Source: Trichoplax adhaerens (Eukaryota > Animalia > Placozoa). Taken from it: DNA of 17,666 nt. The DNA lies in NCBI RefSeq assembly GCF_000150275.1, contig NW_002060991.1, forward strand, positions 23,589 to 41,254, in the 5' to 3' direction. Below, piece after piece: positions 1 to 17,666 of the stretch. Under the pieces are notes generated by a model. That model worked only from the letters and a program-made list of their open reading frames with translations. It had not been told where the DNA came from and did not search any database. The first letter of the stretch is position 1. Every line of letters starts with the position of its first letter. Made by a program: the position numbers and the translations under genes.

Positions 1-61
1 CTTCGTCAGCAAGGTGCATAGCCCACCCAAGACTGTGTGATCAAATCGAGTATCTCATTCT

Positions 62-285
62 AGATAGAGAAGACTGGACCACGCGAAAATAATAATATAA
101 AAAAAATCATTTAAAGAAAAAAAAGAGCCGTCGGCTTAAAAATTTTTTATATATTTCTTTGGCATATATGCTTACGCGCGCGAGAAGAAATGTAAAAAAA
201 ACTCCTGAGCCGACTATTTATTTTTTAATTCTCTTAGTTAGTTATTATATACGCGATTCGCGATTGGTCCAGGTCTCCTCTATCT
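62..285. repeat. Long imperfect terminal inverted repeat / fold-back hairpin
   Basis: AGATAGAGGAGACTGGACCA (62-81) pairs with TGGTCCAGGTCTCCTCTATCT (265-285, one extra G). GTCGGCT (130-136) pairs with AGCCGAC (208-214). TTTTTTATATATTTCTT (~143-159) pairs with AAGAAATGTAAAAAAA (~185-200). The tip holds palindromes GCATATATGC (162-171) and CGCGCGCG (175-182). Confidence 0.85.
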
Positions 286-304
286 CTAATAAATCTAAAT
301 AATC

Positions 305-1716
305 TGTGAAGTTTATAGTCTATGTGGAACATACATTATAAATTATGTGGAACATTTGCAATCGAATACTCAATAATATAAGACTGATTATCCGGTTTAT
401 CTTAGAAGACTCGATTTTCCCGTATATCCATGTTCCACATAGATTATGAACTTTAATCTAATCTGATTATCCGGTTTATCTAAGCCGTTTTCGACTGTTT
501 ATATGAGGGGTAATATTTGAGATTGTGTGAACAGATATTGTGAAGTTTATAATCTATGTGGAACATAGATTATAAACTATGTGGAACATACATTATAAAC
601 TATGTGGAACAAACATTATAAACTATGTGGAACATACATTATAAACTATGTGGAACATTGCTAAAATTGACGGTGAATAGGGAATTGATCAAAATTAAGA
701 AGGCAAAGTGGAACATAAATAATTATGAAACTATGTGGAACATTTAGAGTTATAAACTATGTGGAACATTCAGAATCATAAACTGTGTGGAACACGCAAG
801 ATAGGAGATTCGGATGGATGTGGAATGTTTATGTGTAATTTCAAAGTTTATAATCTATGTGGAACATACATTATAAATTATGTGGAACATTTAGAAATGG
901 AACACTTGATAGGGTTTTGATCAAAAATAAGCAGGTAAATTTTTTGGTTAAGCTAGTACGATATTGCCTAATCTGTTAGATAGGTCGTTTGTACAAACCA
1001 AGTAGGCAAATTTTATGTGAATATTGTGCGATATTCCCTAATATTAGAGCTAGGAGTAAAAACTATGTGGAACATAAATAATTATGAAACTATGTGGAAC
1101 ATTTAGAGTTATAAACTATGTGGAACATTTAGAATCATCAACTGTGTGTAACACGCAAGATACGAGATTCGGATGGATGTGGAATGTTTATGTGTAATTT
1201 CAAAGTTTATAATCTATGTGGAACATACATTATAAATTATGTGGAATATTTAGAAATGGAAGACTTGATAGGGATTTGCTCGGAATTAAGGTAGGTAAAT
1301 TTTGGGTGAATATTGTGCGATAATCCCTAATCTAAGTGGGGAGATAGGATTTGATGAAAATTAAAATAGGCAAATTTTGGGTGAATATTGTACGATAATC
1401 CCTAATCTAGAATTTAAAACTATGTGGAACATGTAGCATAGATTTGGATAGAAAGATTCAAAACTATGTGGAACATATCACCACCGTAAAGTATGTGGAA
1501 CATAGGATCGGATAGATTAAAGCTATGTGTGAAGATAGAGAATTGATAAAAGTGTTAATAGGCAAAATATTGTGTCATATTCCCTAATCAGGATTCAAAA
1601 CTATGTGGGATATTCAAAACTATGTGGAACATTTAAAACTATGTGGAACATTCTAAAATATGTGGAACATTCAAAACTATGTGGAACATGCAACTGTCAT
1701 AAACTATGTGGAACAT
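305..1716 (+). repeat. Subterminal array of (CTA)TGTGGAACA repeats
   Basis: About 24 exact forward TGTGGAACA copies by manual count, plus variants and one inverted copy (TGTTCCACATAG, 432-443). Five copies are in 23-bp tandem register (TATGTGGAACA at 555, 578, 601, 624, 647); another tight cluster lies at ~1600-1716. Confidence 0.95.
708..1278 (+). repeat. ~210-bp direct duplication (708-919 / 1067-1278)
   Basis: Near-identical blocks offset by 359 bp, from GTGGAACATAAATAATTATGAAAC to ACTTGATAGGG(T/A)TTTG, with a few substitutions. Confidence 0.9.
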
Positions 1717-2010
1717 TGTATAATTTAACATGGTCAAGTATTAGTAATACTTTATATTATGCACAGCGTATATATAACAATACACTACGCGAAGCATTGC
1801 AAGCGAGTAAACATACTGTAGGTAGACTATAAATTCAGATCAGATTGTGCATGCCTGCTTCAACGTTCTAACAGCGAATAACAGATGATATGCAACATCA
1901 AGCAACTGTTTATAACTCCTTCATTTCTATTCACAATCAACCGATGGGCTACAGAGTGGTGGTTTGTGGGATGGTCAAAGAAATTGAGAGTCTTAGTTCG
2001 AATCCTAATA

Positions 2011-3178: not shown

Positions 3179-4288
3179 TTAAACATTATTCAAATCTTCG
3201 ATAGGAATCCATGAATTAAAATTATTAGAATAGCCCTTCCATTTAACTAATGCTAATCTCTTCTTTTTATCTTTCCTGATTACCCTTTCAATGCGATATT
3301 TATCTTGTTTAGTTTTCTGCAATTCAGGCTCATAAAATGATCCTTCAATAGGTTCATCATTGAGATCTTTCAACTTATATGTAATAGGATCGGTTTGCTG
3401 GATTGATTCTATAACAAAAATTTCCTCTGTCCAATTGGGCGTGTAACCCTTGTCAAACACTTTTCTTTTATACTTTGAAATTCGCACTCTGTCACCAACT
3501 TTAAATTTCGTTTTTTTACTTAAAGATTCAATGTTTCCATACAAATTGTGCCATGTTTGAATCTCATTTACTATCTTACTACCTTCCACTGGAGTCATTT
3601 TGATACTACTGTGTTCCGAATTATTATACTGTTCAATGAGTTTCTGTAAAATATCAATGTATTTGTTAGTATTTTTGGCGCTAAAATGTTTCCACATTCG
3701 TTCCTTCAACGTTCTGTTAAATCTCTCAATAACAACTGCTTTTCCTTCATTATACGTACTGTAGCGCTCAATATTACAATCGTTCAACATCTTGTCAACA
3801 ACTCTATTATAAAACTCGGATCCTTGATCAACCCATAACTTAATTGGCTTTCTATGACTAGATTTAATGATCTTATCAAATGCTTCAGCTATACTATTAC
3901 CTGTTTTATCTTTTACAAGTACACTCCAAGCATATTTACTAAAAATGTCAATTACGTTAAGTAAATATTTGTAACCACTATTGTATTTTGCAAATTCCTG
4001 CATATCAACAAGATCAGCTGACCAAATGTCATCAATTCCATTCACTCTTACACGACGCTTAGGAAAGTTCCTTCTGATTGGTTTATGCAGTTCATTAGCT
4101 AATTGAGTAGACCAATCGACATCTTTATTACCAAAGCCTGTAATACTTTTATCAAATCTGGCCTTGATAGCACCACACGAAATACACTTACTCTTTACAA
4201 TTATTCTATTATTTTCGGTTTCCACATGTAATATACTATCAGGAATAGAATCAGTATATTTTCTTTCTCGAATGCAATATGACAGCAT
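3179..4288 (-). CDS. Retroviral-like (rve) DDE integrase with C-terminal chromodomain (Polinton c-integrase)
   Basis: WSADLVDM, LWVDQGSEF and VIERFNRTLK give D,D(33)E. Also FKVGDRVRI...KGYTPNW and a chromodomain YRIERVI...LVKWKGY...NSWIP. The first ATG is at 4288 (the track starts at an upstream TTG, 4321). Confidence 0.96.
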   Translation of the reverse strand: MLSYCIRERKYTDSIPDSILHVETENNRIIVKSKCISCGAIKARFDKSITGFGNKDVDWSTQLANELHKPIRRNFPKRRVRVNGIDDIWSADLVDMQEFAKYNSGYKYLLNVIDIFSKYAWSVLVKDKTGNSIAEAFDKIIKSSHRKPIKLWVDQGSEFYNRVVDKMLNDCNIERYSTYNEGKAVVIERFNRTLKERMWKHFSAKNTNKYIDILQKLIEQYNNSEHSSIKMTPVEGSKIVNEIQTWHNLYGNIESLSKKTKFKVGDRVRISKYKRKVFDKGYTPNWTEEIFVIESIQQTDPITYKLKDLNDEPIEGSFYEPELQKTKQDKYRIERVIRKDKKKRLALVKWKGYSNNFNSWIPIEDLNNV

Positions 4289-4301
4289 CGCGTATACTAT
4301 A

Positions 4302-4769
4302 TTATTTAATAAAATTAGCAAACTGTTTTATCAACCGCTCATTAAAAGTTGTCGGTTTTTGTTCATAGTCTAGTAAAATATCAAGAGGTTTATTATTGTA
4401 ATAACGTTTTATTAAATAGTAACAACAATAATATCCACACATAACTGAATTGATGTTTTGTATTTGTGATCGATTATACACTATCCCTTTCTTAGCTGTT
4501 TTTAAATATGATAGTATTTCACTTGGAGGATATAATCCAAATGAATCAAAATACTCAACATCATTGCTGTGTAGGTCACAATAATAACAAACCCAATGTG
4601 TTCCTGGTCCCGCAAAATAATCCTGCATGTTAACTACTCCACACTCACTTTTCAACATAGCCTTGGGTAGCATGTCTTTTGAAGAAACACCCCGAAAGTT
4701 TTTTATCTTATATTTCTTCATGATGTGATCAATTTCGATATTACTTAATGGTTTTATCGTTGTATCCAT
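4302..4769 (-). CDS. Adenain/Ulp1-like cysteine protease (virion maturation protease)
   Basis: GTHW (H58), YFDSFG (D75) and QIQ...MCGYYC (Q104, C111): catalytic order His-Asp-Gln-Cys, typical size. Confidence 0.95.
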   Translation of the reverse strand: MDTTIKPLSNIEIDHIMKKYKIKNFRGVSSKDMLPKAMLKSECGVVNMQDYFAGPGTHWVCYYCDLHSNDVEYFDSFGLYPPSEILSYLKTAKKGIVYNRSQIQNINSVMCGYYCCYYLIKRYYNNKPLDILLDYEQKPTTFNERLIKQFANFIK

Positions 4770-5617
4770 CTTCCTACGTATGGAGGAGTCTGTAAATGTC
4801 CCGGAACATGCATCCCTTTTGGAATATATATTGATTTGCCTTTTTTTATAGATTTTTTTTTTTTTAACCCTTTACCTTTTTTGGGGATTGTTCCAGGTAA
4901 TGTTACACCTCTCCCAGCTATTCCACTAATAACAGCAGGTAAAATACCAGCTAATAAAGCACCAATAAATCCACCATTTTTGGCTACTTGAGTTTTAGAC
5001 AATTTGATATCACAACCAGTGTTCTTCAATTTAGCTTTATTAATTTTATTAATTTGTCGACGTGTTAGATATAATTTATCAGGTCCAGTTAAATCAGAGC
5101 GAGATAAACGAATTGTGCATCCTTTCTTAGCATTTATTGCCGATTTTAATTTCTGCTTCTGTGATGGTGAAATATTTACTCCATATTCTGAATAAGGCAT
5201 CTTATATATATTACTACTAGATAAAAAACCTCTTCCACCAGTTGCTTTATGAGTAGCTCCAGAAATAGCACCTGTAGCTGCGGCCATTGCTAACTTTGGT
5301 ACCACACTTTTTATTACTTTAGGAGCTGCTTTAGCTATAGCAGGAACAGCTGCACGAATTAGACCCATTAAAGCACCTAAGAAACCTGCTTGTTTTGATA
5401 CTTGATTTCGGCTTAATTTTAGTATAACACTCTTATTATTTTTTCTAGCTTTAATAACTTTATTATGTTGCGTTAAAGTCAATCCTAAATTATCGTTACC
5501 TTGTAACTGATGTGATAATAGTCTTATAGTTATTGCTTTATTATGTTGATAGGCTTTAGAAATAGCATTTTTCTGAGAATTTGTTAAAGTGAATCCAGTG
5601 TTTATATAGGAATTCAT
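4754..5617 (-). CDS. Basic core-like protein (adenovirus pVII/pX-like precursor) with duplicated domain
   Basis: Very Lys-rich. Two similar ~80-aa units, each followed by [AG]GF[LI]GAL and a Gly/Ala hydrophobic segment ending in GRG. Lies between the protease and MCP genes. Confidence 0.7.
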   Translation of the reverse strand: MNSYINTGFTLTNSQKNAISKAYQHNKAITIRLLSHQLQGNDNLGLTLTQHNKVIKARKNNKSVILKLSRNQVSKQAGFLGALMGLIRAAVPAIAKAAPKVIKSVVPKLAMAAATGAISGATHKATGGRGFLSSSNIYKMPYSEYGVNISPSQKQKLKSAINAKKGCTIRLSRSDLTGPDKLYLTRRQINKINKAKLKNTGCDIKLSKTQVAKNGGFIGALLAGILPAVISGIAGRGVTLPGTIPKKGKGLKKKKSIKKGKSIYIPKGMHVPGHLQTPPYVGRWIQR

Positions 5618-5629
5618 TATAATATAGGT

Positions 5630-7039
5630 TTATACAATAACATTCATTCTTCCTCCTAATCCATGTAGTTGCAAATATCTATCAGTCAAGACAACTGCAT
5701 AAACATAATATGGTACATCATTACTGTTATTATTGATACTTTTAAAATTTTTCCCTAATGTCCATTTTACTTCAATATCTGCTGGACTATTTTTTAATCG
5801 TTCATTATGCTTAGATACATCGAAATGGAATATAGGATACAAATTTGCCCAATCTTCAGCAGATAACTGTGAACCAGTATCTGTATCTTGATATTTATGG
5901 ACTGCCTCCATAAACATCATATAAGGTCGACTATAATTTCTATTCGACGGATGAAAGTTACATTCTATCTCTCTTTCAGTGTATTGAATCGAGTTTATTC
6001 TAGCTGAAATACGTCTTACATCTGCATTATCAAATATCATGTTATTCATCGTTTGATTATTTTCTCGTTCAGTAGATTGAAATACAATGAAAATATGACG
6101 TGGTAATTCTGTTCCAGGCTGTGTAGTAATTCTCCAGGTAGGAGATGTTTGATTAGCTGCATATTGTGTCATATAAACTTTAACTTGCTCAAAGTAAAGA
6201 TTACTAATGTGTCCACTAACAAGTTTGGCCTCTAACTGGCTAGCTACTTCTAATGATGGAGTTACTTTAGGCATCCACATTGAAACATGTGATATTTTAA
6301 ATTTTCCGTCATCAATATTACTATCTTTTAAAATGTAGTTAGCTGTGGCAGCCCTATCGAGTTGTAAAGTATGTTTAACACCTCTAAATACTGTATCGAC
6401 ATCTTTACAGAATCCAAATATAGAACTTAGAGGTATTAAAAGTGATATTTGTTTATCACCTGTTGTTAATAGTTGTCTTGCATGAAATCCTCTGTTATAT
6501 TGAGGATTTGTGACTAATTTCATATCTCGAATTTGTTTAGCTTTTACAGTAACAACATCACTAGCTATGCTCACTGGGAATGACTCTGTCATATCAAATT
6601 CTGTCATATTTGGTTTACCTGTAGCTGTATCACGGTACCACAACATATTAGTTGCAATACTTCTACTGTAATCATCACTATACATGACTAAGTTTAAAAT
6701 TGTAGATGCATATGGGAGCCAATCGTTGATTTCTTCAACCGTATGATTATTAATTTGATATTGAGCACTTCTAAAAAGTGATAAGCCGTTATTCACTAAT
6801 GTTACAGCATCATCTGCATTATACAATGATCCACTATCTTTCGTTAAGTTTCCTCGTATTTCTATTACTGCTTTATGAGGCAATAGATAGACATCTTCAT
6901 CTCTAGTTTCAATCAAATAACTTCCTTTATCCATATCAGTATCTCGTGGCAGATACTCTATATATTCAAATTCTACAATTGAATTGTCTGCATGATTAGG
7001 CTCATCTATTCTTAGATATTGACTCACTAATTCTGACAT
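5630..7039 (-). CDS. Major capsid protein (double jelly-roll)
   Basis: 469 aa, beta-rich. Motifs seen in Polinton MCPs: NNGLSLF, IPLSSIFGFC, PRHIFIVFQ, YPIFHFDVS. Position within the morphogenetic cluster. Confidence 0.88.
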   Translation of the reverse strand: MSELVSQYLRIDEPNHADNSIVEFEYIEYLPRDTDMDKGSYLIETRDEDVYLLPHKAVIEIRGNLTKDSGSLYNADDAVTLVNNGLSLFRSAQYQINNHTVEEINDWLPYASTILNLVMYSDDYSRSIATNMLWYRDTATGKPNMTEFDMTESFPVSIASDVVTVKAKQIRDMKLVTNPQYNRGFHARQLLTTGDKQISLLIPLSSIFGFCKDVDTVFRGVKHTLQLDRAATANYILKDSNIDDGKFKISHVSMWMPKVTPSLEVASQLEAKLVSGHISNLYFEQVKVYMTQYAANQTSPTWRITTQPGTELPRHIFIVFQSTERENNQTMNNMIFDNADVRRISARINSIQYTEREIECNFHPSNRNYSRPYMMFMEAVHKYQDTDTGSQLSAEDWANLYPIFHFDVSKHNERLKNSPADIEVKWTLGKNFKSINNNSNDVPYYVYAVVLTDRYLQLHGLGGRMNVIV

Positions 7040-7063
7040 TAATATATATTATGGTTATATAAT

Positions 7064-7579
7064 TTAAATTATACGTTCAAATCCCTTACCAGTCTTAACA
7101 CCCGAACCAGATAAAATATTTGATAGTATAGCTCGAGATTTATCATTCAAAACTTTTCTAACTTGTGGATTGGTCGATAAATTAGTGACGTTATCTTTGA
7201 TTCGATTTCGGAAAGTCTGCATTAAATTTTTAGTAGTTTTCTTATCAGCCTTTTCAATTTGCTTGATGACCGCTTTATCTTCATTTATAATATTTTTTAC
7301 TACCTGATCACCTAATTTCTTCGCTTGCGAAGTTATTGTTTGTTTACTAGCTTGGATTGCCTTATCGCCTAGCTTCTTCGCTTGCGACGTGATTGTCTGT
7401 TTACCAGCTTGGATTGCCTTATTACCTAGTGGTTTTAAAGCCTTTTTAATAGGTGTTATCTTATTCTTAACAATTTTGCTACCTATCGAAATAACTTTCT
7501 TAGCGCGATCAAATAGATTACCCAATAAATTACCACCAATAATTTTTTTCTTGAAATATTGTTCTCTTTGTAATAACAT
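7064..7579 (-). CDS. Basic virion protein, probable membrane-lytic (pVI-like) precursor
   Basis: IIGG followed by an amphipathic helix NLLGNLFDRAKKVISIGSKIV, an internal 19-aa repeat, and C-terminal LSGSG. ATG at 7579 (the track uses the TTG at 7582). Confidence 0.6.
   Translation of the reverse strand: MLLQREQYFKKKIIGGNLLGNLFDRAKKVISIGSKIVKNKITPIKKALKPLGNKAIQAGKQTITSQAKKLGDKAIQASKQTITSQAKKLGDQVVKNIINEDKAVIKQIEKADKKTTKNLMQTFRNRIKDNVTNLSTNPQVRKVLNDKSRAILSNILSGSGVKTGKGFERII
7308..7429 (-). repeat. 57-bp intragenic tandem repeat (2+ copies; LG[ND]KAIQA[GS]KQTITSQAKK)
   Basis: CCTA register at 7311, 7368 and 7425; differences are mostly synonymous. Confidence 0.9.
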
Positions 7580-7647
7580 CAATATATATATATATTATTT
7601 TATTTTACCCACAAGAAGTATTAATTGTTTATATCAGGTCCTAATAT

Positions 7648-7959
7648 TCAATCTACTACAATATGTACGTATCTCGATGTAAAATTTCTATACTCTTTTT
7701 TCTTTAAGAAATCAACATAAAAGGCTTTATCATCACTCATATATATATATCCTGATGGCGTCCTCTTTTTTTTTAGAACTTCCATTAGAAAGGTATCTCC
7801 ATTGTGACGCTTAAGTAGAACTATATCCTTATTACTCTTTCGTATTAATTTATTCTTGAGAAATTGAATAACAGTCTGAATCATACTTCTTAAGCGGTCA
7901 ATAAAGTAATGCAGTGGATTGCCAGTGTTTTTTTTATCAGATTTTTTTCCTCGCATCAT
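7648..7959 (-). CDS. Hypothetical basic protein, 103 aa
   Basis: ATG ORF filling the gap in the co-directional structural cluster, preceded by a (TA)n tract like its neighbours. Confidence 0.65.
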   Translation of the reverse strand: MMRGKKSDKKNTGNPLHYFIDRLRSMIQTVIQFLKNKLIRKSNKDIVLLKRHNGDTFLMEVLKKKRTPSGYIYMSDDKAFYVDFLKKKEYRNFTSRYVHIVVD

Positions 7960-7984
7960 ATATATATATATATGTTATATTAAT

Positions 7985-8746
7985 TTATAACTCCTTGATG
8001 TGGAGGTAATAGGTAACTCGTTCGTTATTTAAGTCAACTAAATTACCATCTTGATCTGTTACTTTAAATGTAACACTATTTATTGCACTCATTACTTTCA
8101 TCGAATTGTACATTTTCTGAAATGGTCGTACTTGTAATAGACTACCTGGTGGGACATTTGGTGATGTACAATGTATCAAATCTCCACTCTTTCCATTGAT
8201 GTAGGAACCATCTACAAGACTACAATGTATTTCAATAGTGTTAATACTTGTTATGTTAACAATCTGATCGCTATGATGTTTTCCATTTCCAGATATTATC
8301 CTTGAATTAAAACCTAGGATATCTCTAAAAGTATTATCTATTGTGAAATCCAATTTGTAATTATTTTTTAATTCGATCTCAGACTTAAATGTATTATAAT
8401 TTGGTGAAATGTTAACATGAAACAAGTTTTCGTCTCCAGATGTATTGGCAGGGATGTAATCGTTATTTTCTTTCATGATATTTTGTATCGCTTTCTGAAT
8501 ATCGACTACATTATATGCTCCTGGAGGAATGATGGTATTTTTCCAAACTTTTCCGTTAAAATATTTAAATTTATTGTTCTTTGATGTAATATTGTACCAA
8601 GAATACCAAATTTCAGCAGCAATGAGAGCTACTTTATAAATCTTTTTTATGTCAAGTAACAGAGGAGGATTAAAATATGTCGTAAAATTTTCGTCTTTTC
8701 CTATTGCCTTTTTACTATCAAAGAATAATGTTGTCTCAAATACCAT
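7985..8746 (-). CDS. Minor capsid protein (penton, single jelly-roll)
   Basis: 253 aa. N-terminal FTTYFNPPLLL, IPPGAYN, ILGF, IHCSLV, and C-terminal VTDQDGNLVDLNNE..YLHI fit Polinton pentons. Confidence 0.85.
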   Translation of the reverse strand: MVFETTLFFDSKKAIGKDENFTTYFNPPLLLDIKKIYKVALIAAEIWYSWYNITSKNNKFKYFNGKVWKNTIIPPGAYNVVDIQKAIQNIMKENNDYIPANTSGDENLFHVNISPNYNTFKSEIELKNNYKLDFTIDNTFRDILGFNSRIISGNGKHHSDQIVNITSINTIEIHCSLVDGSYINGKSGDLIHCTSPNVPPGSLLQVRPFQKMYNSMKVMSAINSVTFKVTDQDGNLVDLNNERVTYYLHIKEL

Positions 8747-8758
8747 TATATTATAATG

Positions 8759-9889
8759 TTATATAAAACTATTATGAATCTTTTCATACTGTTCTTTAGT
8801 AATTATGTTATCATTATACAATATATCAATTATATTTATGGCCTCATTATTTAATTGTTGATTACTATTTCCTGCTTCCTTCGCTCCTAAAATTACCTCT
8901 AGTCGATTACATAACTGATCTGGATTACTATAGTGCTTATATTGTATTTTTTCAGTATTCGACGATTTATTGTCACGGCCAATCTTGGTTTTCATGCTTC
9001 TACTGTTCATAGGTACACCAGATAATTCCACAAGCTTAGTAAATAATTTTTGAGCCTTATCGCTATATGTCTTTTTAGGATTGTACCTCTTCGTTAATAA
9101 ATCATAAAATGTATTATCAAATTTCCTGCTAAGCACTTTTCGTCCATTGTGATCATAAGCTTCTAGTTTCATTTGTATCAGTTTATTTGGATCTATATAT
9201 AAATCACCAAAATACGAATTATTAGCTAATGAATAAGGATCTCTCATAGTATGTTTTACATTTTTTTTTATAGATATTCCGTACCCTGATTGTGATCCTT
9301 CTTCTCGTATTGGATCTAACTGTTGCAAATTCTTTTCACGAACTACTGCTAAATATTTACTTAGAGTTAGTTGTTCTTGTTTTACTATTTGGTATTTAAC
9401 AGAGTTATTTTTTCTAGATGCATGAGTAGCTTGTGCTGTTAAACTGTTAATTTTTCTTCTAATAGATTTTATATCTTGAGGTTTGCTTAATGTGGGATCA
9501 AAACCATTTTTTTTTATAGTCTCGATTTCTTGAGGGTTAAATCTTCCTTGAAGGCCATCTTGGGAATGACTGTCCAACCATTGTTGCACTGAACTGTCTT
9601 CAGACTGTCGTTGTGATATGGTACTACTAAGTGATTCAATATTACTAGATAATGCTTCTTGATTTTTTTGTAACTGCTCAAGAAGTTTATCCTGTCGATT
9701 ATCTTCTTTTTTTTGAACTTCTTCAATTTTCTTTACAACAGGTTTTTGTAATTTTGTAGTAGATTCTTGGAATGATTGCTCGTTTAATTTTTGGTTTAGT
9801 TGTTGCTGTTTTAATATTGATCTATTCTTAAGAAAAGTATTAATTACTCTCTTTCTATCTTCCACTGTCTCTATCGTGTCAAAAGGCAT
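8759..9889 (-). CDS. Polinton conserved protein (coiled-coil N-terminus), function unknown
   Basis: Gln/Lys-rich coiled coil, central QSGYG, and C-terminal Y-x-NP-x2-L-x2-RL...GAKEAGN, a motif I recognise from Polinton ORFs near the ATPase. Confidence 0.7.
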   Translation of the reverse strand: MPFDTIETVEDRKRVINTFLKNRSILKQQQLNQKLNEQSFQESTTKLQKPVVKKIEEVQKKEDNRQDKLLEQLQKNQEALSSNIESLSSTISQRQSEDSSVQQWLDSHSQDGLQGRFNPQEIETIKKNGFDPTLSKPQDIKSIRRKINSLTAQATHASRKNNSVKYQIVKQEQLTLSKYLAVVREKNLQQLDPIREEGSQSGYGISIKKNVKHTMRDPYSLANNSYFGDLYIDPNKLIQMKLEAYDHNGRKVLSRKFDNTFYDLLTKRYNPKKTYSDKAQKLFTKLVELSGVPMNSRSMKTKIGRDNKSSNTEKIQYKHYSNPDQLCNRLEVILGAKEAGNSNQQLNNEAINIIDILYNDNIITKEQYEKIHNSFI

Positions 9890-10075: not shown

Positions 10076-10750
10076 TTATGGTACATAGAAACCATCGAAT
10101 CCCTTACGATAAATTTCTGGAATATACTTTGTGTTTTTATCAATAACCATAAATGTGTATGGTTGTTCTGTTGCTTCTATGTAGATATTTTTAAACTCAC
10201 TTTTACTAATACCTTTGGCATGATCTTCTGTAATATTTCTAATATCTCTATTATCTAATCCACCAAACAGAATAAAGCATTTAGTATTTCTTCTAATATA
10301 TTTAGGAACATCATAGTAACTTTGGGTCAAGTAGATACAATTACAATTTTTGTTTCTACTTAAACTAAAATATTCCTTAATTTTGTTCATGTTTTTAGAA
10401 TCAATTTTTATATCATCGAAAACAATTACTTTCTGCATCTCTGAATCTAGCTCCTCTACTGGTATTACCTCTTCAGGATTCTCAATGCTCAATGTATAAT
10501 GTTCATCATCTAATTCACTATTTAACATATCATAGAATGACTGCAATAATTCATACTTTTCCTGATCTGGATTAATAGTGTATACAACACAATCATCATA
10601 GTTTAACCATTGCATCAACATATTCAGTAATAAATTTGTTTTACCTTGACCAGTACTTCCAACTATCAAATAGTGACAATCAGGTAATAGAAAGTGATGT
10701 TTATATATTACTCCAACTCCTTTTTTGTCGTCAAAATTGATTATATCCAT
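10076..10750 (-). CDS. Genome packaging ATPase (A32/FtsK-HerA superfamily)
   Basis: Walker A GSTGQGKT, Walker B VIVFDD, SRNKNCNCIYLTQSY and IRRN motifs; 224 aa. Confidence 0.95.
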   Translation of the reverse strand: MDIINFDDKKGVGVIYKHHFLLPDCHYLIVGSTGQGKTNLLLNMLMQWLNYDDCVVYTINPDQEKYELLQSFYDMLNSELDDEHYTLSIENPEEVIPVEELDSEMQKVIVFDDIKIDSKNMNKIKEYFSLSRNKNCNCIYLTQSYYDVPKYIRRNTKCFILFGGLDNRDIRNITEDHAKGISKSEFKNIYIEATEQPYTFMVIDKNTKYIPEIYRKGFDGFYVP

Positions 10751-10779
10751 ATTTTATATAATATATATGTATATTATAA
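10751..10779. promoter_or_regulatory. Putative 29-bp bidirectional TA-rich promoter
   Basis: Almost pure A/T spacer between the divergent ATGs of the ATPase (10750, -) and fibre-like (10780, +) genes. Confidence 0.45.
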
Positions 10780-11883
10780 ATGAGTTATACAATCTTTGGT
10801 ACTTTACATAATCAGCATAATGAGGTTATAAAAGTTCGTGGACTCAAAGGTAATGGATATAAAATTAATGATGATGGTGATTACGATTTAGAAAGCAAAA
10901 GATTGACGAATTTATCATCAAATGTAGTGGATGACTCAGATGCGACAAATAAACAATACGTTGACAGTAGAATTGATACAAAAGTTTCTAAATCAGGGGA
11001 TGTATTATATGGAAATTTGGATATGAATAAGAACTGTATCAAAAATTTACATGACATAGATCCGAATGATGACGGTGCAATTGCAATAAATAAAAGATAT
11101 CTAGAAACTTATTATCTTGATAAAAGGTCTTTTATGATGAATAAATATTTTTCTGGAATACCAGTTGAAGATTTGTCGTTATTTTTTTTACCTAATATTA
11201 ACTTATGCGAAGTTTACAAAAAAGATAAATGTATGAGTTTACTAGATCCTATCAATCAAATTAAATTAGTTCAAAATGTTAAATTAAAACAACCTTCTTA
11301 CTTAATTGATCAAGAACATATACCTTATATCGCATTTGACGGAAAAAATAATTCCATGGCAGGTGAATTAAAATATGAAACTATGAATCATCATGGGGCT
11401 ACTACGTTCTTCTTAGTTGTTGCTACTAAGGGATTAAAAAATCAAACTCAATTTAGCTGGAGCGTTAAGAATCGAAACGGTGGTTATAATATCAACAAGA
11501 GATTAGGAGTTCATTTGCCATGGTCTGATGGTACTACATATATAGATCATGGGTCAGTTAATAATTACAGAATGCAATATAAAGATAGTACATTAACAGA
11601 TGAGATGATTAATAAAATAGTTCTTTGGAGCTATAGATGCACTGGTAAAAGAGCATCGTTATGGTTAAATCAAAATCATCTATATTCTGAAGATGAAAAA
11701 CATATTTCATCTGATCTGTTTGATACAGGAATATTTACCCTAGGGAATGGTTATCATGTCTCAGAACATTGTAGTATGGATTTCTATGGTCTGTTATTCT
11801 ATAACAGAGCTTTGACTGATGAGGAAATGAATAAAATGCAAATATATTTGAGAACATTTTTCAAATTTAATTATGTGGATTAA
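10780..11883 (+). CDS. Putative fibre/receptor-binding protein with C-terminal ConA/LamG-like head
   Basis: Two fibre-shaft-like units (LTNL...DATNKQYVD; GNLDMN..IKNL...AINKRYLE). The beta-rich C-terminus has IAFDG, LWLN and YNRALTDEEM, typical of LamG-3-like domains. Confidence 0.65.
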   Translation: MSYTIFGTLHNQHNEVIKVRGLKGNGYKINDDGDYDLESKRLTNLSSNVVDDSDATNKQYVDSRIDTKVSKSGDVLYGNLDMNKNCIKNLHDIDPNDDGAIAINKRYLETYYLDKRSFMMNKYFSGIPVEDLSLFFLPNINLCEVYKKDKCMSLLDPINQIKLVQNVKLKQPSYLIDQEHIPYIAFDGKNNSMAGELKYETMNHHGATTFFLVVATKGLKNQTQFSWSVKNRNGGYNINKRLGVHLPWSDGTTYIDHGSVNNYRMQYKDSTLTDEMINKIVLWSYRCTGKRASLWLNQNHLYSEDEKHISSDLFDTGIFTLGNGYHVSEHCSMDFYGLLFYNRALTDEEMNKMQIYLRTFFKFNYVD

Positions 11884-11898
11884 TATTATAGACGCATA

Positions 11899-12396
11899 AT
11901 GGAAAACAAAGTGGATAACATATTTAACTTCAATAGTATATCTGATCAATTATCATCTGAAGAAATAGATTTCTTGAAAAAATTGTATGCTTACTATCAT
12001 AAGAAAACATGGTGTTATAAACGTGCATATAAATACCTTAAACATAAGGACTTATTTTTGAGTGTCTCTGCTATTTTCTTAACAGCATTAGGTGGAGCTG
12101 TATCAGCAGCAACAATAAATTTTATTCCCTTACCAACTATATCACTGGTAGGTATCGTCTTACATGGGTATAATAAAAAGAAAAATTATAAAAAAAGAAT
12201 AGAGCTATGTAAATTTGCTTATACAAGCTATCAAAAAGTTTTGATTGATTTACGAAGTTATTTAAGGGGAGATCAATATGATTCTGATCAGGTAATTCAT
12301 CATCTTAATTGGATAGATAAGGAAATAACAGATTTATGTCCTCCTATAGATGATTACTATAACAAACGCTATGATAAATATCATATTATTAATTAA
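11899..12396 (+). CDS. Small two-TM membrane protein (SLATT-like topology)
   Basis: Hydrophobic hairpin LFLSVSAIFLTALGGAVSAATINFIPLPTISLVGIVL flanked by basic helices. Confidence 0.65.
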   Translation: MENKVDNIFNFNSISDQLSSEEIDFLKKLYAYYHKKTWCYKRAYKYLKHKDLFLSVSAIFLTALGGAVSAATINFIPLPTISLVGIVLHGYNKKKNYKKRIELCKFAYTSYQKVLIDLRSYLRGDQYDSDQVIHHLNWIDKEITDLCPPIDDYYNKRYDKYHIIN

Positions 12397-12418
12397 TAGA
12401 ATCTTTCTATTGATTAAT
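12388..12418. terminator. 14-bp stem hairpin between convergent genes
   Basis: ATTAATTAATAGAA-TCT-TTCTATTGATTAAT (one T:G pair), overlapping the stop of the 165-aa ORF. The terminator role is inferred. Confidence 0.5.
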
Positions 12419-12461
12419 CATCTATGAAATGATTGAAAATTGTATGGCATAACATATATGT

Positions 12462-13067
12462 TTATGTCGATGGTAGAAATTCCCATCTATTCACCTCACA
12501 TACTGCTTTCCATATATTTTCATAATGGTTTAGTGTCGCCTTAGACTTTGGAAGTTTACATTGTGAAGCTATGTCAGCCCTATGCAATATAATAAGTAGT
12601 TTATGAAAGATATACATTGTATTAATATATCTCTTTCTATTCATCCCTTTTAATATTTCCGATAGCGATATATTAGCTTCTTCGAAGTATCTTAGAAACT
12701 CTCCTAGCTGAAAATCTTTTAATTGAAGTTGATTTAGCTTATTCATTATATGATATTTTCGATGATAAATACTACGTTTTTTCTTTACATACGTATGGTT
12801 ATATTCAGGTACAAAGATGTAACCGTAATGACATCCACATTTGATACATAAATATTCAGTCCCAGTTTGTTCTATAATAGTATCACATTTTCACAAGTCC
12901 ATGGTGTATTCTTAACATCAAAACGAGGACATTCACATCCATAATCAAATATTTCACCACATTTCAAGCAGAAATCATCAAGAGTAAATTTTTTTCTATC
13001 TTTCCTCGACGACTATTTAAAAGAATTAAGATCTGACTTTTAAAAAGTCAGATAATGGAAAATCCAT
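12462..13067 (-). pseudogene. VLTF3-like (poxvirus A2-type late transcription factor) gene, frameshifted
   Basis: C-terminus LPKSKATL...IWKAVC...WEFLPS is VLTF3-like. The frame stays open upstream of 12746 to 12890 (KCDTIIEQTGTEYLCIKCGCHYGY...RSIYHRKYHI). The adjacent frame continues with CLKCGE..CEC...WTC. Candidate start is the TA-preceded ATG at 13067. Confidence 0.7.
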
Positions 13068-13182
13068 TACATATAATGATTTACATACGATGTCGACGTA
13101 TCTGTCGTCATCAGATGAATCAATATCGTCATTCGAATTACTATCGTCTGGGATATCAGAATCATGATTAGATAAATCGTTA

Positions 13183-13503
13183 TTAATTTTCGGATGTAAA
13201 TTTTCTGCTTCTTTTTTTTTGGCTCTCTTTGAAACAACTATCTGGTATTTCATCAACATAATCGAATTTGTATTTCTTACCATCAACTTTAGATTTACCA
13301 GATTTACAGCGGTTAGTCTTATCACAAGACATTTTAATAATGCCACAATTAATACCTAACTTTTTTTGACAGTTATATATGGAATGATAATATGATACCT
13401 CATCTGTATCAATACAAGTTGCTTTTATCTTCTTCACATTCTCGTGATTTTTTGAAACAAATGAATAATCCCGGTTTTTTACTGACTTTGTACAATGTTT
13501 CAT
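13183..13503 (-). CDS. NUMOD1-like DNA-binding protein (no nuclease domain)
   Basis: KKIKAT..DTDEVSYYHSIY..QKKLGIN.GII...C...YKFDY matches the NUMOD1 pattern of HNH homing endonucleases. Probable start is the ATG at 13503 after TATATATAAAA (the track extends to 13542). Confidence 0.6.
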   Translation of the reverse strand: MKHCTKSVKNRDYSFVSKNHENVKKIKATCIDTDEVSYYHSIYNCQKKLGINCGIIKMSCDKTNRCKSGKSKVDGKKYKFDYVDEIPDSCFKESQKKRSRKFTSEN

Positions 13504-13653
13504 TTTTATATATATAGTGTTCATAAAATATTCTTTAAGCATTAGCTATGATACATTGAAATACATAATGATACACAATGTTTTTCAGTAAATTTACAAA
13601 GAAATTGCTTAAAGAAATGCTTAAAGAAATTTTTATATATATAATATATAGAA

Positions 13654-16600
13654 ATGCAAAAGAAGGAATTGAAAAAATTATCGAAAAAAGAGTTAACAAA
13701 CATTGTATCGAGTAGATCACATAACACCAAATCCACTAAACGTACTAAACCTATTAAATTAAAAGAAGGTTATGAGATTAATCCTACGACTGGTAGACAA
13801 ATTAAAATCAATGGTCCAACATATAGAAAGATCCATAATAAATCAAAAGAAGGTTATGTGATTAATCCTAAGACAGGTAGGCAAATTAAAATCAATGGTT
13901 CAACGTATAGGAAGATCCATAATAAATCAAAAGAAGGTTATGAGATTAATCCTAAGACAGGCAGATTTATTAAAATTGATGGTCTGGTTCATAGACGGAT
14001 GAGAAAAGAAATGCAACAAGAAATAAAAATGAAGGAGCCAGAAATATATTCTATGACCGTTTTGTTATTTAGACGAGTAGATGAATCTAGTAAGATGAAA
14101 AAAATTGCCTTCACAAGTAAGGATGGATATCGTTATATTTTGATTGCGAAACGTATTCTTAACATATCAATGAAAAAATGTATCGATCTCTATCTTAACA
14201 AACGAATTTACAGGAAAGAGGATGGTAAATATAACGAACAGTTCACTGAACTTATTGATCAATTGATATCTTCAATAGATTTTGAAGAATTATGGGATAA
14301 ATGTGGTCATTATACCGATTGTATTATAATAAAATCTGCTTCGAAATGTCCTAATCTGGGTGAAAATGTTGACGTATTAGAGGAGGAATTACATCTTACA
14401 AATACAGAAATGGGTGTTTATGATAAATATCTTAACTTTGATCTAAATCAAGAAGTTCTATCAGATACACGAGCTAATAGCTGTTTTGTGAATTTGATTG
14501 TTAGCAAATTTGAGGCTGCATTTGGTAAAGTTAGGAAAGATGGAACAAAGTATTATAGATTTAATCTGACTCATGAAAGCCTATGTGAGATTTGTGGTAT
14601 CAATTATCAAGAAGATAATATAGGCTTGTCTGTAAATAAATCACTTGCATTCTTTAAGAAATTTAGGATCGGATTATGTGTGTATGGGCCATTTGGACGA
14701 CTATTAAAGTACAGTCCAGAACATCCAAATAAAAAAATAAATCCGAGAAATTTGTACATCTATATTCACAACAAACATTGCTATGAAATCAATAATAATA
14801 TCAAAAAATTCGAACAGGTTGTTTGGCGACCAAATGATGATGTCTCATCTGAATTAAAATCTTTGAAGGTTTCAAATGAATACTATATCAGAGATACGAA
14901 TATCCACACAAATAGAGCACTATTTATTGATGACTGTGAACAGATGATAAGATATCTAGATGATAAAGATAATGATGAAATAAAACTTGTAACATTTGTA
15001 TATAACGAAGATACACTAGATACTTTCTTGTTTGAGATTATTGAGAAAATGAATTATACACCTGAGATTAATTTCAATTATGGTAAAATAATGACACTAA
15101 AATTAAAATATAACAAAATAATAGCAGTAATAACGGCTCCTGATATTAAACAAAATGATGTTGATATGGAAATTGACGAAAAAAGTTACGAAACATTTCA
15201 TAAAGTGGATGATGAATTTTACAAAGGTTTATTACAAAAAAATCATTTGTCGTGCTATAATCAGACTATTATGGACCTTGAAAATGTGTTGAAAATATCA
15301 CCAATGGGCGGTTATTTTGATAATTGCATGGTATATAATGAGCTGTTAGGAATAGATAGTAGAAAGGCTTATACTAGTGATTTTATGAACATTGAATTTT
15401 ATCCTGTCTTTAACCATTTCGATGTGTGGCAGAGTTACGATGGACATGCAGTTGAAGACTATACACAGTATATCGTTGAAACTAAACGTTGCCATCCTAT
15501 TCTGTTTAATGCAAAATTTTCTAGATGTTACGGGATAAAGTTAAATAAAATAAGATTTAATGATGTAGAAATTCTTTACTATAGAAGACCTTCGAATTTA
15601 GTCAAAAGTAATAGCGAGCACCTTGTGAAGGCTGTCTATGAATCTGACCTGCCTCTTGATTGTAAGAAATTCATCGTTAACAAAAATTTAGGGCTAATAG
15701 AAAAGAAGAGAAATGTAAAAACAATTACAAAGGTCTTTAAAAATTACGATGAGGCATTCTATTATCAAAACTCGTTAGATAATGGCCAGATTTATACGAT
15801 TACGGGAAACAGCATAAATACAGAATTGGAAGAGTTAGAAGAAGAAGAGAAGAATAAATTGTATTTGCTATGTATATCTGAAGAAAGAACTTTAATTAAT
15901 GGATTTTTACCAATTAAAGAACTTGTATATGATATCAGATCTATTAAAAATTATATGACGTATAAAAAATTAATTCGTGCTAATATTGAAGTTCGTGGCA
16001 TTAAGACTGATAGTCTGCTAATTGACAATAGTAGGGATAATAAATCCAAAGTGAAAAAGCTCTTTGATTTCAGCAATAAAATTGGCTGTTTTAAACTCGA
16101 GACATGTAATTATTTAATAGATAAGAAATTACAATGGATCGAAAATGAATTACCGCAAATTGCACAAATAACTATCACAGAGCATGAGATTAAAGATGAA
16201 AGAGACACGGATGAGATTAATAATGTGTTTAAAAAATATAACACATTTATTAAAGGATCATTACCTGGTGTTGGTAAAACAACTTGTGCCAAAATGAATC
16301 CGTATATAAAAACTCTTTTTGTTAGTCCTTATAATAAACTGTGCCAGGAGTTACGAAAAAGTAGTCACGATGCGGTAACTCTAAATATGTTACTTGGAAT
16401 TGGAATCGATGATAAACACATAAAAATGAAAAACTTTAACATTGAGCCATATGATTGTATCGTTTTTGATGAGATTTTATTATATAATCCCTATCAACTG
16501 TATTTAATTAAAATGTTCATGAAAAAGAATGCTGAAAAAAGATATTTATGTACTGGTGATGTTGATCAAAGAAAGCCATTTACTTTCGGTACAAACAATA

Positions 16601-17538
16601 TCAAAGATCAAAATAATTATCAGTTGTGGTGCTTAAATCAAATGTTCCCACATCAACTGACGTTAAGCGAAAATAAACGTTTGAATAAGAGCTCTGATAA
16701 GAGAAAGCTAATTGTGCTTAAGAGGGATATTTTTGATCTTAATAAGGACGTTATTTCTACTTTTAAACGCCATGGAATCAAAGTTGTTAAGACCATGAAA
16801 GAAGTAACAACGATAAAAAATATTTGTTTGTTTAATTTTAGGTGTGACCAGGTTAATAAACACGTCGCTAAGAATGTAGTCGAAAGAGCTGGATTTTATA
16901 GCGGTTTAGAACTTGTTTGTAAAAAGCACTATAAGAATAAAAATGATCGGCTGTATGTTAACTATCATTATGTTTTAAAATCGATTGGAGATAAGTATTT
17001 TGTCGTGAACGAGCCAGTTGAGAACAAAGATATTCGACTGGACGTTGATAAATTGAAATATTTCAAACTTCCGTATGCTAATACATGCGATTCAGTACAA
17101 CGTCTCACAATAAAGGACAAAATTACCATATTTGATTGCAATACGCCCTATGTGGATCGCTACTTTATTTGGACTGCATTAACACGAGGCACAAATTTAA
17201 AAAATGTTCAGATATATGAACATTCACCGGAAGAAATTATGTCTTTAAACGAATCTTGGGTAAAACTTTACTTTAAGAATAAGATAGAGGATTACAGATC
17301 ACAAGATAGGGCAGCGGGTAGAAAAAATGATAAGGATTACATAGATATTGATTGGATTCAGTTACAACTCGAAAAGTGCACGTCATGTCTTCTATGTAAT
17401 ACATTATTTGAAGCTATGATTAATCCGGATAATAACATTAATTCTAACATTACAGTTGATAGAATTGATAATAAACTACCACATGTTAAGAGTAATTGTA
17501 GGTTAATGTGCCTTGATTGCAATGTGAGAAAGCGTTAG
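13654..17538 (+). CDS. Multidomain replicase: repeats + OTU-like + divergent family-B DNA polymerase + SF1 helicase + HNH-like nuclease
   Basis: PolB-like motifs A (GID568SRKAYTS), B (K672FIVN676KNLG) and C (GIKTD786S). SF1 motifs GSLPGVGK875T, FD939EI, GDVDQ, ENKR, YANTCDSVQRLT, WTALTR. C-terminal CLLC...TVDRIDN..PH..SNC..MCLDCN. Confidence 0.85.
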   Translation: MQKKELKKLSKKELTNIVSSRSHNTKSTKRTKPIKLKEGYEINPTTGRQIKINGPTYRKIHNKSKEGYVINPKTGRQIKINGSTYRKIHNKSKEGYEINPKTGRFIKIDGLVHRRMRKEMQQEIKMKEPEIYSMTVLLFRRVDESSKMKKIAFTSKDGYRYILIAKRILNISMKKCIDLYLNKRIYRKEDGKYNEQFTELIDQLISSIDFEELWDKCGHYTDCIIIKSASKCPNLGENVDVLEEELHLTNTEMGVYDKYLNFDLNQEVLSDTRANSCFVNLIVSKFEAAFGKVRKDGTKYYRFNLTHESLCEICGINYQEDNIGLSVNKSLAFFKKFRIGLCVYGPFGRLLKYSPEHPNKKINPRNLYIYIHNKHCYEINNNIKKFEQVVWRPNDDVSSELKSLKVSNEYYIRDTNIHTNRALFIDDCEQMIRYLDDKDNDEIKLVTFVYNEDTLDTFLFEIIEKMNYTPEINFNYGKIMTLKLKYNKIIAVITAPDIKQNDVDMEIDEKSYETFHKVDDEFYKGLLQKNHLSCYNQTIMDLENVLKISPMGGYFDNCMVYNELLGIDSRKAYTSDFMNIEFYPVFNHFDVWQSYDGHAVEDYTQYIVETKRCHPILFNAKFSRCYGIKLNKIRFNDVEILYYRRPSNLVKSNSEHLVKAVYESDLPLDCKKFIVNKNLGLIEKKRNVKTITKVFKNYDEAFYYQNSLDNGQIYTITGNSINTELEELEEEEKNKLYLLCISEERTLINGFLPIKELVYDIRSIKNYMTYKKLIRANIEVRGIKTDSLLIDNSRDNKSKVKKLFDFSNKIGCFKLETCNYLIDKKLQWIENELPQIAQITITEHEIKDERDTDEINNVFKKYNTFIKGSLPGVGKTTCAKMNPYIKTLFVSPYNKLCQELRKSSHDAVTLNMLLGIGIDDKHIKMKNFNIEPYDCIVFDEILLYNPYQLYLIKMFMKKNAEKRYLCTGDVDQRKPFTFGTNNIKDQNNYQLWCLNQMFPHQLTLSENKRLNKSSDKRKLIVLKRDIFDLNKDVISTFKRHGIKVVKTMKEVTTIKNICLFNFRCDQVNKHVAKNVVERAGFYSGLELVCKKHYKNKNDRLYVNYHYVLKSIGDKYFVVNEPVENKDIRLDVDKLKYFKLPYANTCDSVQRLTIKDKITIFDCNTPYVDRYFIWTALTRGTNLKNVQIYEHSPEEIMSLNESWVKLYFKNKIEDYRSQDRAAGRKNDKDYIDIDWIQLQLEKCTSCLLCNTLFEAMINPDNNINSNITVDRIDNKLPHVKSNCRLMCLDCNVRKR
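13762..13995 (+). repeat. Three 84-bp (28-aa) repeats KEGY.INP.TGR.IKI.G
   Basis: Units start at 13762, 13846 and 13930; the third diverges at its end. NPxTGRxIKxxGxTY resembles the core of the NCLDV 2-cysteine adaptor motif but lacks the cysteines. Confidence 0.9.
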
Positions 17539-17666
17539 AAACGATAAAGATTTCTAAATTTGAAAGGGCATTTACTTTCTGTCCCCCTTTGGTATATCTT
17601 GTCTTGGTCCTTTCTTGCTTTCTCTACATTTCTTAATAGCAGCTATAGCTTGTGCTCATTTCATAT

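What the first reader, a model, noticed from the sequence alone, without database searches (positions are those of the whole stretch)
13654..17538. PolB-SF1 helicase-HNH single-chain replicase replacing pPolB
Polymerase motifs A/B/C occur in order at aa ~568-786 but diverge (DSRKAY, KxxxNKxxG, KTDS). The two catalytic Asp positions appear retained. I cannot recognise proofreading Exo I-III motifs. A complete SF1 (RecD/Pif1-like) motif set and a Zn-binding HNH-like domain follow. An ORF scan would likely label it only as a helicase.
Basis: partly seen in the sequence, partly recalled or inferred. Interest (0 to 1): 0.8.

Follow-up and report, generated by a model that had tools for sequence, protein, structure and literature searches.

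The report
Known viral polymerase-helicase fusion replicase
This gene of a Polinton-like virus encodes one long protein with a protease domain, a predicted DNA polymerase core, a helicase and a nuclease-like tail that likely copies the viral DNA by itself; the type is already described, but my searches found no bench test of it.

Summary
The 1294-aa ORF folds at aa 419-826 like phi29 protein-primed DNA polymerase (Foldseek 3.8e-8; Z 13.5). Both catalytic aspartates are invariant in 138 of 138 aligned sequences. A RecD-like helicase and an endonuclease VII/HNH-like tail follow. It is not new: this is the pPolB-S1H (Tlr1-like helicase) replicase of Krupovic 2016/2024. The protein is 98.3% identical to a deposit named Trichoplax MELD virus S1H, and Wei 2026 lists Trichoplax under elements with such fusions. 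It is a derived pPolB, not a replacement by something unrelated. Polymerase activity is inferred only. Small additions: the HNH tail is kept in 124 of 127 long-tailed relatives and diverges with the palm; this copy departs from an otherwise invariant helicase motif V position; two RNA runs of one study show spliced antisense RNA over the capsid genes. This scan noted a relative before on other DNA (e1-7145383).

The parts
13654..17538 (+). pPolB-S1H replicase ORF, 1294 aa
   Evidence: 98.3% identical to P0001, named S1H of Trichoplax MELD virus
13752..14003 (+). three 84-nt repeats coding 28-aa units (aa ~33-117), 2-cysteine adaptor family
   Evidence: D7; PF08793 E 7.5e-14
14026..14358 (+). 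alpha/beta domain at the terminal-protein position (aa ~125-235); terminal-protein identity not shown
   Evidence: model pLDDT mostly 80-95; best fold matches Z 5.9 or less, none a terminal protein
14404..14820 (+). OTU-like cysteine protease domain (aa ~251-389) with Cys277 and His375
   Evidence: top six VIA rows are OTU domains, Z 6.0-6.9; Foldseek rows mostly OTU but E 0.15 or worse; Cys and His 132/132
14908..15243 (+). exonuclease-fold remnant without conserved catalytic acids (aa ~419-530)
   Evidence: structural alignments to phi29 start at model residue 15 against chain residue 5; no invariant Asp/Glu column
15244..16131 (+). protein-primed-type PolB palm and fingers with TPR1- and TPR2-like insertions (aa ~531-826); D568, K672, D786
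16201..17208 (+). RecD/Dda-like SF1B helicase (aa ~850-1185); this copy departs from the family at residue 1150 in motif V
17236..17535 (+). zinc-binding HNH / endonuclease VII-like domain (aa ~1195-1294)
   Evidence: PHROG 1035 E 3e-8, 27 of 31 aligned members; weak PacI match E 0.42
3179..4321 (-). retroviral-type integrase with chromodomain and DUF5679
   Evidence: rve 1.6e-11, Chromo 3e-7, DUF5679 3e-5 below cut-off
4302..4769 (-). adenain/Ulp1-like maturation protease
   Evidence: PF00770 21.8 bits against cut-off 21.3
5630..7039 (-). [quoted passage not shown]
   Evidence: PF21738 E 8.9e-21
7985..8746 (-). probable minor capsid protein (inferred from size and position only)
   Evidence: no family hit above cut-off; homologue lies just before the MCP homologue in L023
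10076..10750 (-). A32-like packaging ATPase
   Evidence: PF04665 E 1.3e-5, above cut-off
12462..12746 (-). VLTF3-like protein
   Evidence: PF04947 E 2.7e-7

Best explanation
The gene encodes a pPolB-S1H (Tlr1-like helicase) replicase of a Polinton-like virus, whose predicted protein-primed polymerase palm likely copies the linear viral genome while the fused helicase likely unwinds the DNA ahead of it. Shown here: domain order (repeats, alpha/beta domain, OTU fold, exonuclease remnant, phi29-like palm, SF1B helicase, HNH-like tail) and family-wide conservation of the protease, polymerase, helicase and nuclease residues. Inferred: the OTU protease cuts off the N-terminal part, which primes synthesis at the genome ends; D568 and D786 bind the two metals for nucleotide addition without proofreading; the 5'-3' helicase takes the place of the missing thumb, tracking the displaced strand and giving strand displacement and grip; the HNH tail nicks or resolves branched replication products. 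The window's own copy may have a weakened helicase.
For: Fold: pLDDT 91.6; all 15 Foldseek PDB matches at E<=0.001 are family B polymerases, phi29 first; VIA Z 13.5, rmsd 5.2, 355 aligned, next entry Z 7.4; the named rows among 38 BFVD matches at E<=0.001 are mostly protein-primed polymerases of phages, bidnaviruses, adenoviruses, adintoviruses and mavirus; ESM Atlas top hits carry PF03175 in 11-25% of members, score 0.93-0.95. Residues: D568 and D786 138/138. OTU Cys/His 132/132 on an OTU fold. Helicase: RecD2 1e-7, RecD 1e-4, Dda 0.009; Walker A follows the palm in 135 of 137 relatives, median 89 aa after D786. No other polymerase gene among the 16 window ORFs scanned. Krupovic 2024 describes the same order and predicts activity, noting that active mavirus, pipolin and plasmid enzymes also lack the first Asp of motif C. 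SF1B 5'-3' polarity is stated.
Against: No sequence method links the palm to PolB: Pfam none, PDB phmmer and profile none, hhalign against phi29 and a 14-phage profile 0.3%, tblastn of phages none. The first Asp of motif C is present in 1 of 138 rows, no KxY column is conserved (any KxY in 24 of 138 rows) and the structural match ends at phi29 residue ~498, so no thumb is seen. The putative terminal-protein domain matches no terminal protein. OTU Z scores are under 8, the level the tool calls possibly a common arrangement. No biochemical test was found. This copy departs from the family at residue 1150 and at 819 (family Lys 108/137).
Confidence: 0.75

Rival explanations
1. The palm does not elongate DNA. 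It is a DNA-binding scaffold, or only adds the first nucleotides to a primer protein, and host polymerases do the copying with the helicase's help (the 2016 'inactivated polymerase' reading).
For: First Asp of motif C, KxY motif, thumb and proofreading residues are all missing; Krupovic 2016 argued inactivation on these grounds.
Against: Exactly the two metal-binding aspartates and the dNTP-binding Lys/Asn/Tyr stay near invariant across proteins about 30% identical while the exonuclease acids have decayed; the same authors reversed the view in 2024.
Confidence: 0.13
2. The polymerase is active but starts chains without a terminal protein (primer-independent, like pipolin PolB, or from a nick or hairpin end made with the HNH domain).
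For: Motif C has Lys before Thr-Asp in 101 of 138 rows, and pipolins also lack that Asp; the N-terminal domain has no terminal-protein match and no Ser/Thr/Tyr there exceeds 78 of 120; window 55-295 folds into a long hairpin (z -4.6).
Against: The OTU dyad, proposed to release the terminal protein, is invariant; TPR1-like insertion present; Krupovic 2024 reports variable folds at this position and a true terminal protein in TvV-S1. That the hairpin is the element's end is not shown.
Confidence: 0.12
3. The HNH tail is a passenger homing endonuclease with no part in replication.
For: Krupovic 2016 and 2024 find HNH in PLVs and GIY-YIG in Tlr1 at this place and read them as invasions; free-standing GIY-YIG or HNH genes sit near the replicase in L014, L029 and L031.
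Against: 124 of 127 relatives with a tail of 60 aa or more carry it; Arg 119/124, His 120/124, Asn 124/124 and four Cys are kept; its divergence tracks the palm (Spearman 0.46, highest of 200 permutations 0.20) and its mean identity (0.37) exceeds the palm's (0.30). The set is limited to close palm relatives, so distant members were not examined.
Confidence: 0.4
4. The family works as described but the window's copy is a decaying endogenous copy whose helicase is impaired.
For: Residue 1150 departs from a motif V column invariant in 36 of 36; contigs of all 8 runs laid carry another letter at that codon; the window has no inverted repeat joining its two ends.
Against: The ORF is uninterrupted and all polymerase, OTU and HNH residues are kept; a single-base assembly error would look the same.
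Confidence: 0.35

Closest known systems
pPolB-S1H fusion proteins (Tlr1-like helicases) of Polinton-like viruses, Tlr1 and transpovirons (PMC5499653; PMC11161782)
   Same: Length 1000-1400 aa; order middle alpha/beta domain, vOTU with Cys/His, palm with motifs A and B, motif C lacking its first Asp, no KxY, no proofreading, SF1B helicase, C-terminal HNH.
   Different: Here about 110 aa of the exonuclease fold are still predicted between OTU and palm (the papers say the domain is lacking, or mostly lost in mavirus); the element also has a maturation protease, which the 2016 paper says PLVs and Tlr1 lack; the HNH tail looks stably inherited in this clade.
Trichoplax MELD virus S1H (Starrett et al. 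2021, PMC8502044; P0001)
   Same: 98.3% identical, collinear, 1294 aa.
   Different: 22 residues differ; the paper describes it as a helicase gene 'instead of a PolB gene' and the passages read do not mention the polymerase, OTU or HNH domains.
pMVRE group 2/3 elements with palm-retaining truncated pPolB fused to SF1 helicase (Wei et al. 2026, PMC13215967)
   Same: Truncated pPolB-SF1 fusion, rve, chromodomain, DUF5679 and MCP are the common domains; Trichoplax sp. H2 is listed in group 2.
   Different: I could not show that their Trichoplax element is this one; their main text has no word on OTU, HNH or protease.
Bacillus phage phi29 DNA polymerase
   Same: Closest solved fold (Z 13.5-13.8).
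   Different: phi29 has active 3'-5' exonuclease residues, Asp-Thr-Asp, KxY and a thumb, a separate terminal protein and no helicase.
OmPLV helicase SF1-pPolB fusion (PMC12721341)
   Same: SF1 helicase and pPolB in one chain.
   Different: Opposite order (helicase first), full exonuclease, no vOTU; an independent fusion according to that paper.

Membership tests
pPolB-S1H (Tlr1-like helicase) | 1000-1400 aa protein with SF1B helicase in the C-terminal part | tested here: met
   1294 aa; RecD2/RecD/Dda matches
pPolB-S1H (Tlr1-like helicase) | PolB palm with conserved motifs A and B upstream of the helicase | tested here: met
pPolB-S1H (Tlr1-like helicase) | TPR1 and TPR2 subdomains (protein-primed type) | tested here: met
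   355 of about 408 model residues align to phi29 5-498, so the 104-aa A-to-B and 114-aa B-to-C insertions must largely align; Z 13.5 against 8.1 or less for other PolBs. The tool gives no residue-level alignment; TPR limits are recalled.
pPolB-S1H (Tlr1-like helicase) | motif C without its first Asp; motif 4 (KxY) missing | tested here: met
   Asp in 1 of 138 rows; no conserved KxY column
pPolB-S1H (Tlr1-like helicase) | no proofreading exonuclease | tested here: met
   no invariant acidic column in aa 405-566 (best 108 of 138 Asp or Glu), whereas phage controls keep each Exo acid in every row that covers it; a structural remnant persists
pPolB-S1H (Tlr1-like helicase) | vOTU domain with catalytic Cys and His before the palm | tested here: met
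pPolB-S1H (Tlr1-like helicase) | terminal-protein-like middle domain | tested here: inconclusive
   alpha/beta domain in the right place; fold matches weak and not to terminal proteins
pPolB-S1H (Tlr1-like helicase) | C-terminal HNH or GIY-YIG nuclease | tested here: met
pPolB-S1H (Tlr1-like helicase) | branches with Tlr1, transpoviron and PLV proteins in palm or helicase trees | not tested
   no named Tlr1 or transpoviron sequence came back, so no tree was built
pPolB-S1H (Tlr1-like helicase) | DNA polymerase and helicase activity | not testable with these tools
   needs biochemistry
canonical Polinton pPolB (TP-vOTU-Exo-palm) | conserved Exo I-III catalytic residues | tested here: not met
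Polinton / adintovirus element | rve integrase, maturation protease, packaging ATPase, DJR capsid protein | tested here: met
   (protease just above cut-off)
Polinton / adintovirus element | terminal inverted repeats | tested here: inconclusive
   none between the window's ends; contigs leave the window just behind the replicase stop, so the right end is probably missing
OmPLV SF1-pPolB fusion | helicase N-terminal to a complete exonuclease-bearing pPolB | tested here: not met
   order is palm then helicase; paper passages

The most novel reading that the evidence does not exclude
In this clade of some 1500 sequence clusters the HNH tail is a working part of a one-chain replisome, not a parasite: a PacI-like nuclease (Asp-Arg strand, His or Tyr in the loop, Asn) that nicks or resolves the products of helicase-driven strand-displacement synthesis by a thumbless, proofreading-dead pPolB, carried here by a full Polinton-type virus of an early-branching animal.
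Probability: 0.3. Interest if true: 0.55.

Novelty: already known. Interest (0 to 1): 0.25.

Why it matters
The type is known, so the finding mainly corrects a database label (helicase only). It would matter more if tested: my searches found no assay of any pPolB-S1H, and whether a polymerase with no thumb, no KxY and no proofreading replicates a 15-20 kb genome with a fused helicase is an open, directly testable question. The conservation data here (both aspartates 138/138; HNH residues kept in 124 of 127) sharpen the targets for such a test.

Tried and rejected
Sequence-level proof of PolB kinship failed throughout: Pfam, PDB by phmmer and by palm and N-terminal profiles, tblastn of phages, hhalign against phi29 and a phage pPolB profile (the returned alignment was off register and was ignored). 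No terminal-protein fold was listed for aa 125-235; this is weak evidence either way. The Atlas search of the tail gave only leads under 0.9. No whole genome is held for the window, so copy number and flanks could not be counted. A second word-index search returned no named Tlr1 or transpoviron protein. The window's protease found no tblastn match in loci L001-L057, which may reflect divergence or short contigs. The two RNA runs have little or no cover at 10456-13551; both are of one study, so nothing is drawn from it. Runs X6, X9, X18, guessed to be RNA, behave like DNA and show none of the splice joints. The paper search for antisense spliced Polinton RNA in placozoans gave 7 general listings, not read. 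The top BFVD match (H6WBE3, 999 aa, E 3e-14) has no name in the tool and none in the papers. An idea that aa 423-429 is an intact Exo I motif was dropped: those columns are not conserved.
Full report
Setting. The window is an AT-rich (27-36% GC) Polinton-type element. Pfam on 16 ORFs found an rve integrase with chromodomain, an adenain-like protease (21.8 bits, cut-off 21.3), a double jelly-roll capsid protein, an A32 ATPase and a VLTF3-like gene; the 1294-aa ORF gave only N-terminal 2C_adapt repeats and a sub-threshold AAA_19 hit. No other polymerase gene was found among them. No whole genome is held.

Identity. A search with aa 400-860 gave 43 proteins; the top one, P0001, is named by its source 'S1H [Trichoplax MELD virus]' and differs from the window protein at 22 of 1294 residues. 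Starrett et al. 2021 (PMC8502044, passages) say this virus encodes a superfamily 1 helicase instead of a PolB. A palm profile found 1549 clusters at E<=0.001 among 1.84 billion representatives, of which the best 150 were returned. I do not state the window's own source.

Polymerase. The model of aa 405-850 (83 sequences) has mean pLDDT 91.6, pTM 0.89. Foldseek on the PDB gave 15 matches at E<=0.001, all family B polymerases, the first nine phi29 (best 3.8e-8). VIA over 48,161 chains gave phi29 Z 13.5, rmsd 5.2, 355 aligned, model 15-422 (aa 419-826) against chain 5-498, the only chain with Z>=8; a second look gave phi29 13.4-13.8 and other PolBs 8.1 or less. BFVD gave 38 matches at E<=0.001, the named ones mostly protein-primed polymerases. 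The Atlas pointed to PF03175. In 138 aligned sequences (the window plus 137 of the 182 proteins then held, chosen for length) D568, G680 and D786 are invariant, K672 137, Y573 136, N676 134. Against this, every sequence-level comparison with known PolBs was blank, the first Asp of motif C occurs in 1 of 138 rows, no KxY column is conserved, and the match stops before the phi29 thumb (thumb limits recalled).

Exonuclease remnant. Alignments to phi29, HSV-1 and archaeal PolBs begin at model residue 15-18 against the start of their exonuclease domains (domain starts recalled), so aa ~419-530 keeps part of that fold. No acidic column there is invariant (best 108 of 138 Asp or Glu), while the Exo acids of 14 phage pPolBs are kept in every row that covers them. 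The remnant was not folded alone, so this rests on range ends.

N-terminal part. The model of aa 125-410 (79 sequences, pLDDT 85.7) has two domains. Aa ~251-389 matches OTU proteases (top six VIA rows, Z 6.0-6.9; Foldseek only E>=0.15); Cys277 and His375 are kept in 132 of 132 rows with a residue (133 rows). Aa 125-235 is an alpha/beta domain with no convincing match.

Helicase and tail. The family profile hits RecD2 (1e-7), RecD and Dda; of 141 relatives of 1000 aa or more, 141 have Walker A, 133 Walker B, 136 motif III, 133 motif V and 121 motif VI by simple patterns. The window copy departs at residue 1150 from a motif V column invariant in 36 of 36; contigs of all 8 runs laid read another letter there. 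The tail matches PHROG endonuclease VII (3e-8; 27 of 31 members), Pfam HNH weakly (5 of 31) and PacI at E 0.42, with the invariant His on PacI's loop Tyr; PMC5714182 (passages) says that loop Tyr replaces the catalytic His in PacI. Of 189 proteins, 136 had motif VI after the palm; 9 with tails under 60 aa were set aside; 124 of the other 127 carry the domain, with His in 120 and Tyr in 3 at that column, and its distances track the palm's (Spearman 0.46; permutations at most 0.20).

Neighbours. Among 29 of 57 loci with at least 500 bases behind the replicase, 19 have an rve gene directly downstream. L001 pairs the replicase with a Sputnik-type virophage capsid, L002 and L031 with rve and A32 ATPase, so the module moves between capsid types.

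Literature. Krupovic 2016 (PMC5499653, parts 1-3 of 5) described the helicase-pDNAP fusion with HNH or GIY-YIG tails and called it inactivated. Krupovic 2024 (PMC11161782, passages and sections 9-10) added TP and vOTU, named it pPolB-S1H and predicted activity. Wei 2026 (PMC13215967, parts 1-2 of 6, passages, supplementary file 2 whole, searches of 8 files) found such fusions in groups 2 and 3 and lists Trichoplax sp. H2 in group 2 and corals and jellyfish in group 3; its figures were not visible. PMC12721341 (passages) describes an independent fusion of opposite order. Searches listed no biochemical test. An earlier AI note of this scan describes a relative with an added primase.

Mechanism. 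Shown: domain order and conservation. Inferred from pPolB and SF1B biochemistry: OTU self-processing frees a primer protein; the palm polymerises with two aspartates and no proofreading; the 5'-3' helicase runs on the displaced strand in the direction of the fork and stands in for the thumb; the tail cuts branched products. I put the whole at 0.75, with the tail's role the weakest step.

Verdict. Real, correctly read, already known as a type and very nearly as a sequence. Interest 0.25.

Noticed in passing
window 4936-9741: RNA runs X15 and X16 (two samples, one study) show 11 and 10 joints of 92-282 nt, 10 and 9 listed with GT..AG ends on the + strand, 9 shared; none in six other runs. The genes here lie on the - strand and 7 of 10 internal exons have stops in all three + frames: a spliced, non-coding antisense RNA across the capsid cassette, possibly host silencing or viral regulation.
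   Followed up: partly
window 15520-15622: One CT..AC joint in X15 only (28-nt side, depth 12) hints at antisense RNA over the replicase too; X16 has an unspliced 3.6-kb piece of unknown strand over the gene.
   Followed up: partly
window 55-295: Nested inverted repeats fold into a long DNA hairpin (-36.9 kcal/mol, z -4.6, 0 of 200 shuffles), possibly the element's left terminus.
   Followed up: partly
window 300-1730: Non-coding arrays of 19-27 nt repeats sharing a 10-nt core, with a 267-nt duplication; may be origin or protein-binding iterons.
   Followed up: no
window 17532-17666: Contigs of five runs leave the window just behind the replicase stop with differing continuations: several copies or a truncated right end.
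   Followed up: partly
L001:200-9623: Same replicase beside Sputnik-type major and minor capsid genes: a virophage with pPolB-S1H.
   Followed up: no
L005:5392-15393: A 17.5-kb contig with 268-nt terminal inverted repeats carries this replicase and a convergent 1476-aa origin-binding (SF2) helicase, with no capsid or integrase family hit among the 10 ORFs scanned: a plasmid-like element with two replication genes.
   Followed up: no
L023:851-14089: Metagenome contig sharing MCP, probable mCP, ATPase, fibre-like and SLATT-like genes with the window; its replicase is broken into several ORFs.
   Followed up: no
window 11899-12396: Weak SLATT (two-transmembrane effector) match, E 0.097; Starrett 2021 lists SLATT among MELD virus genes.
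   Followed up: no
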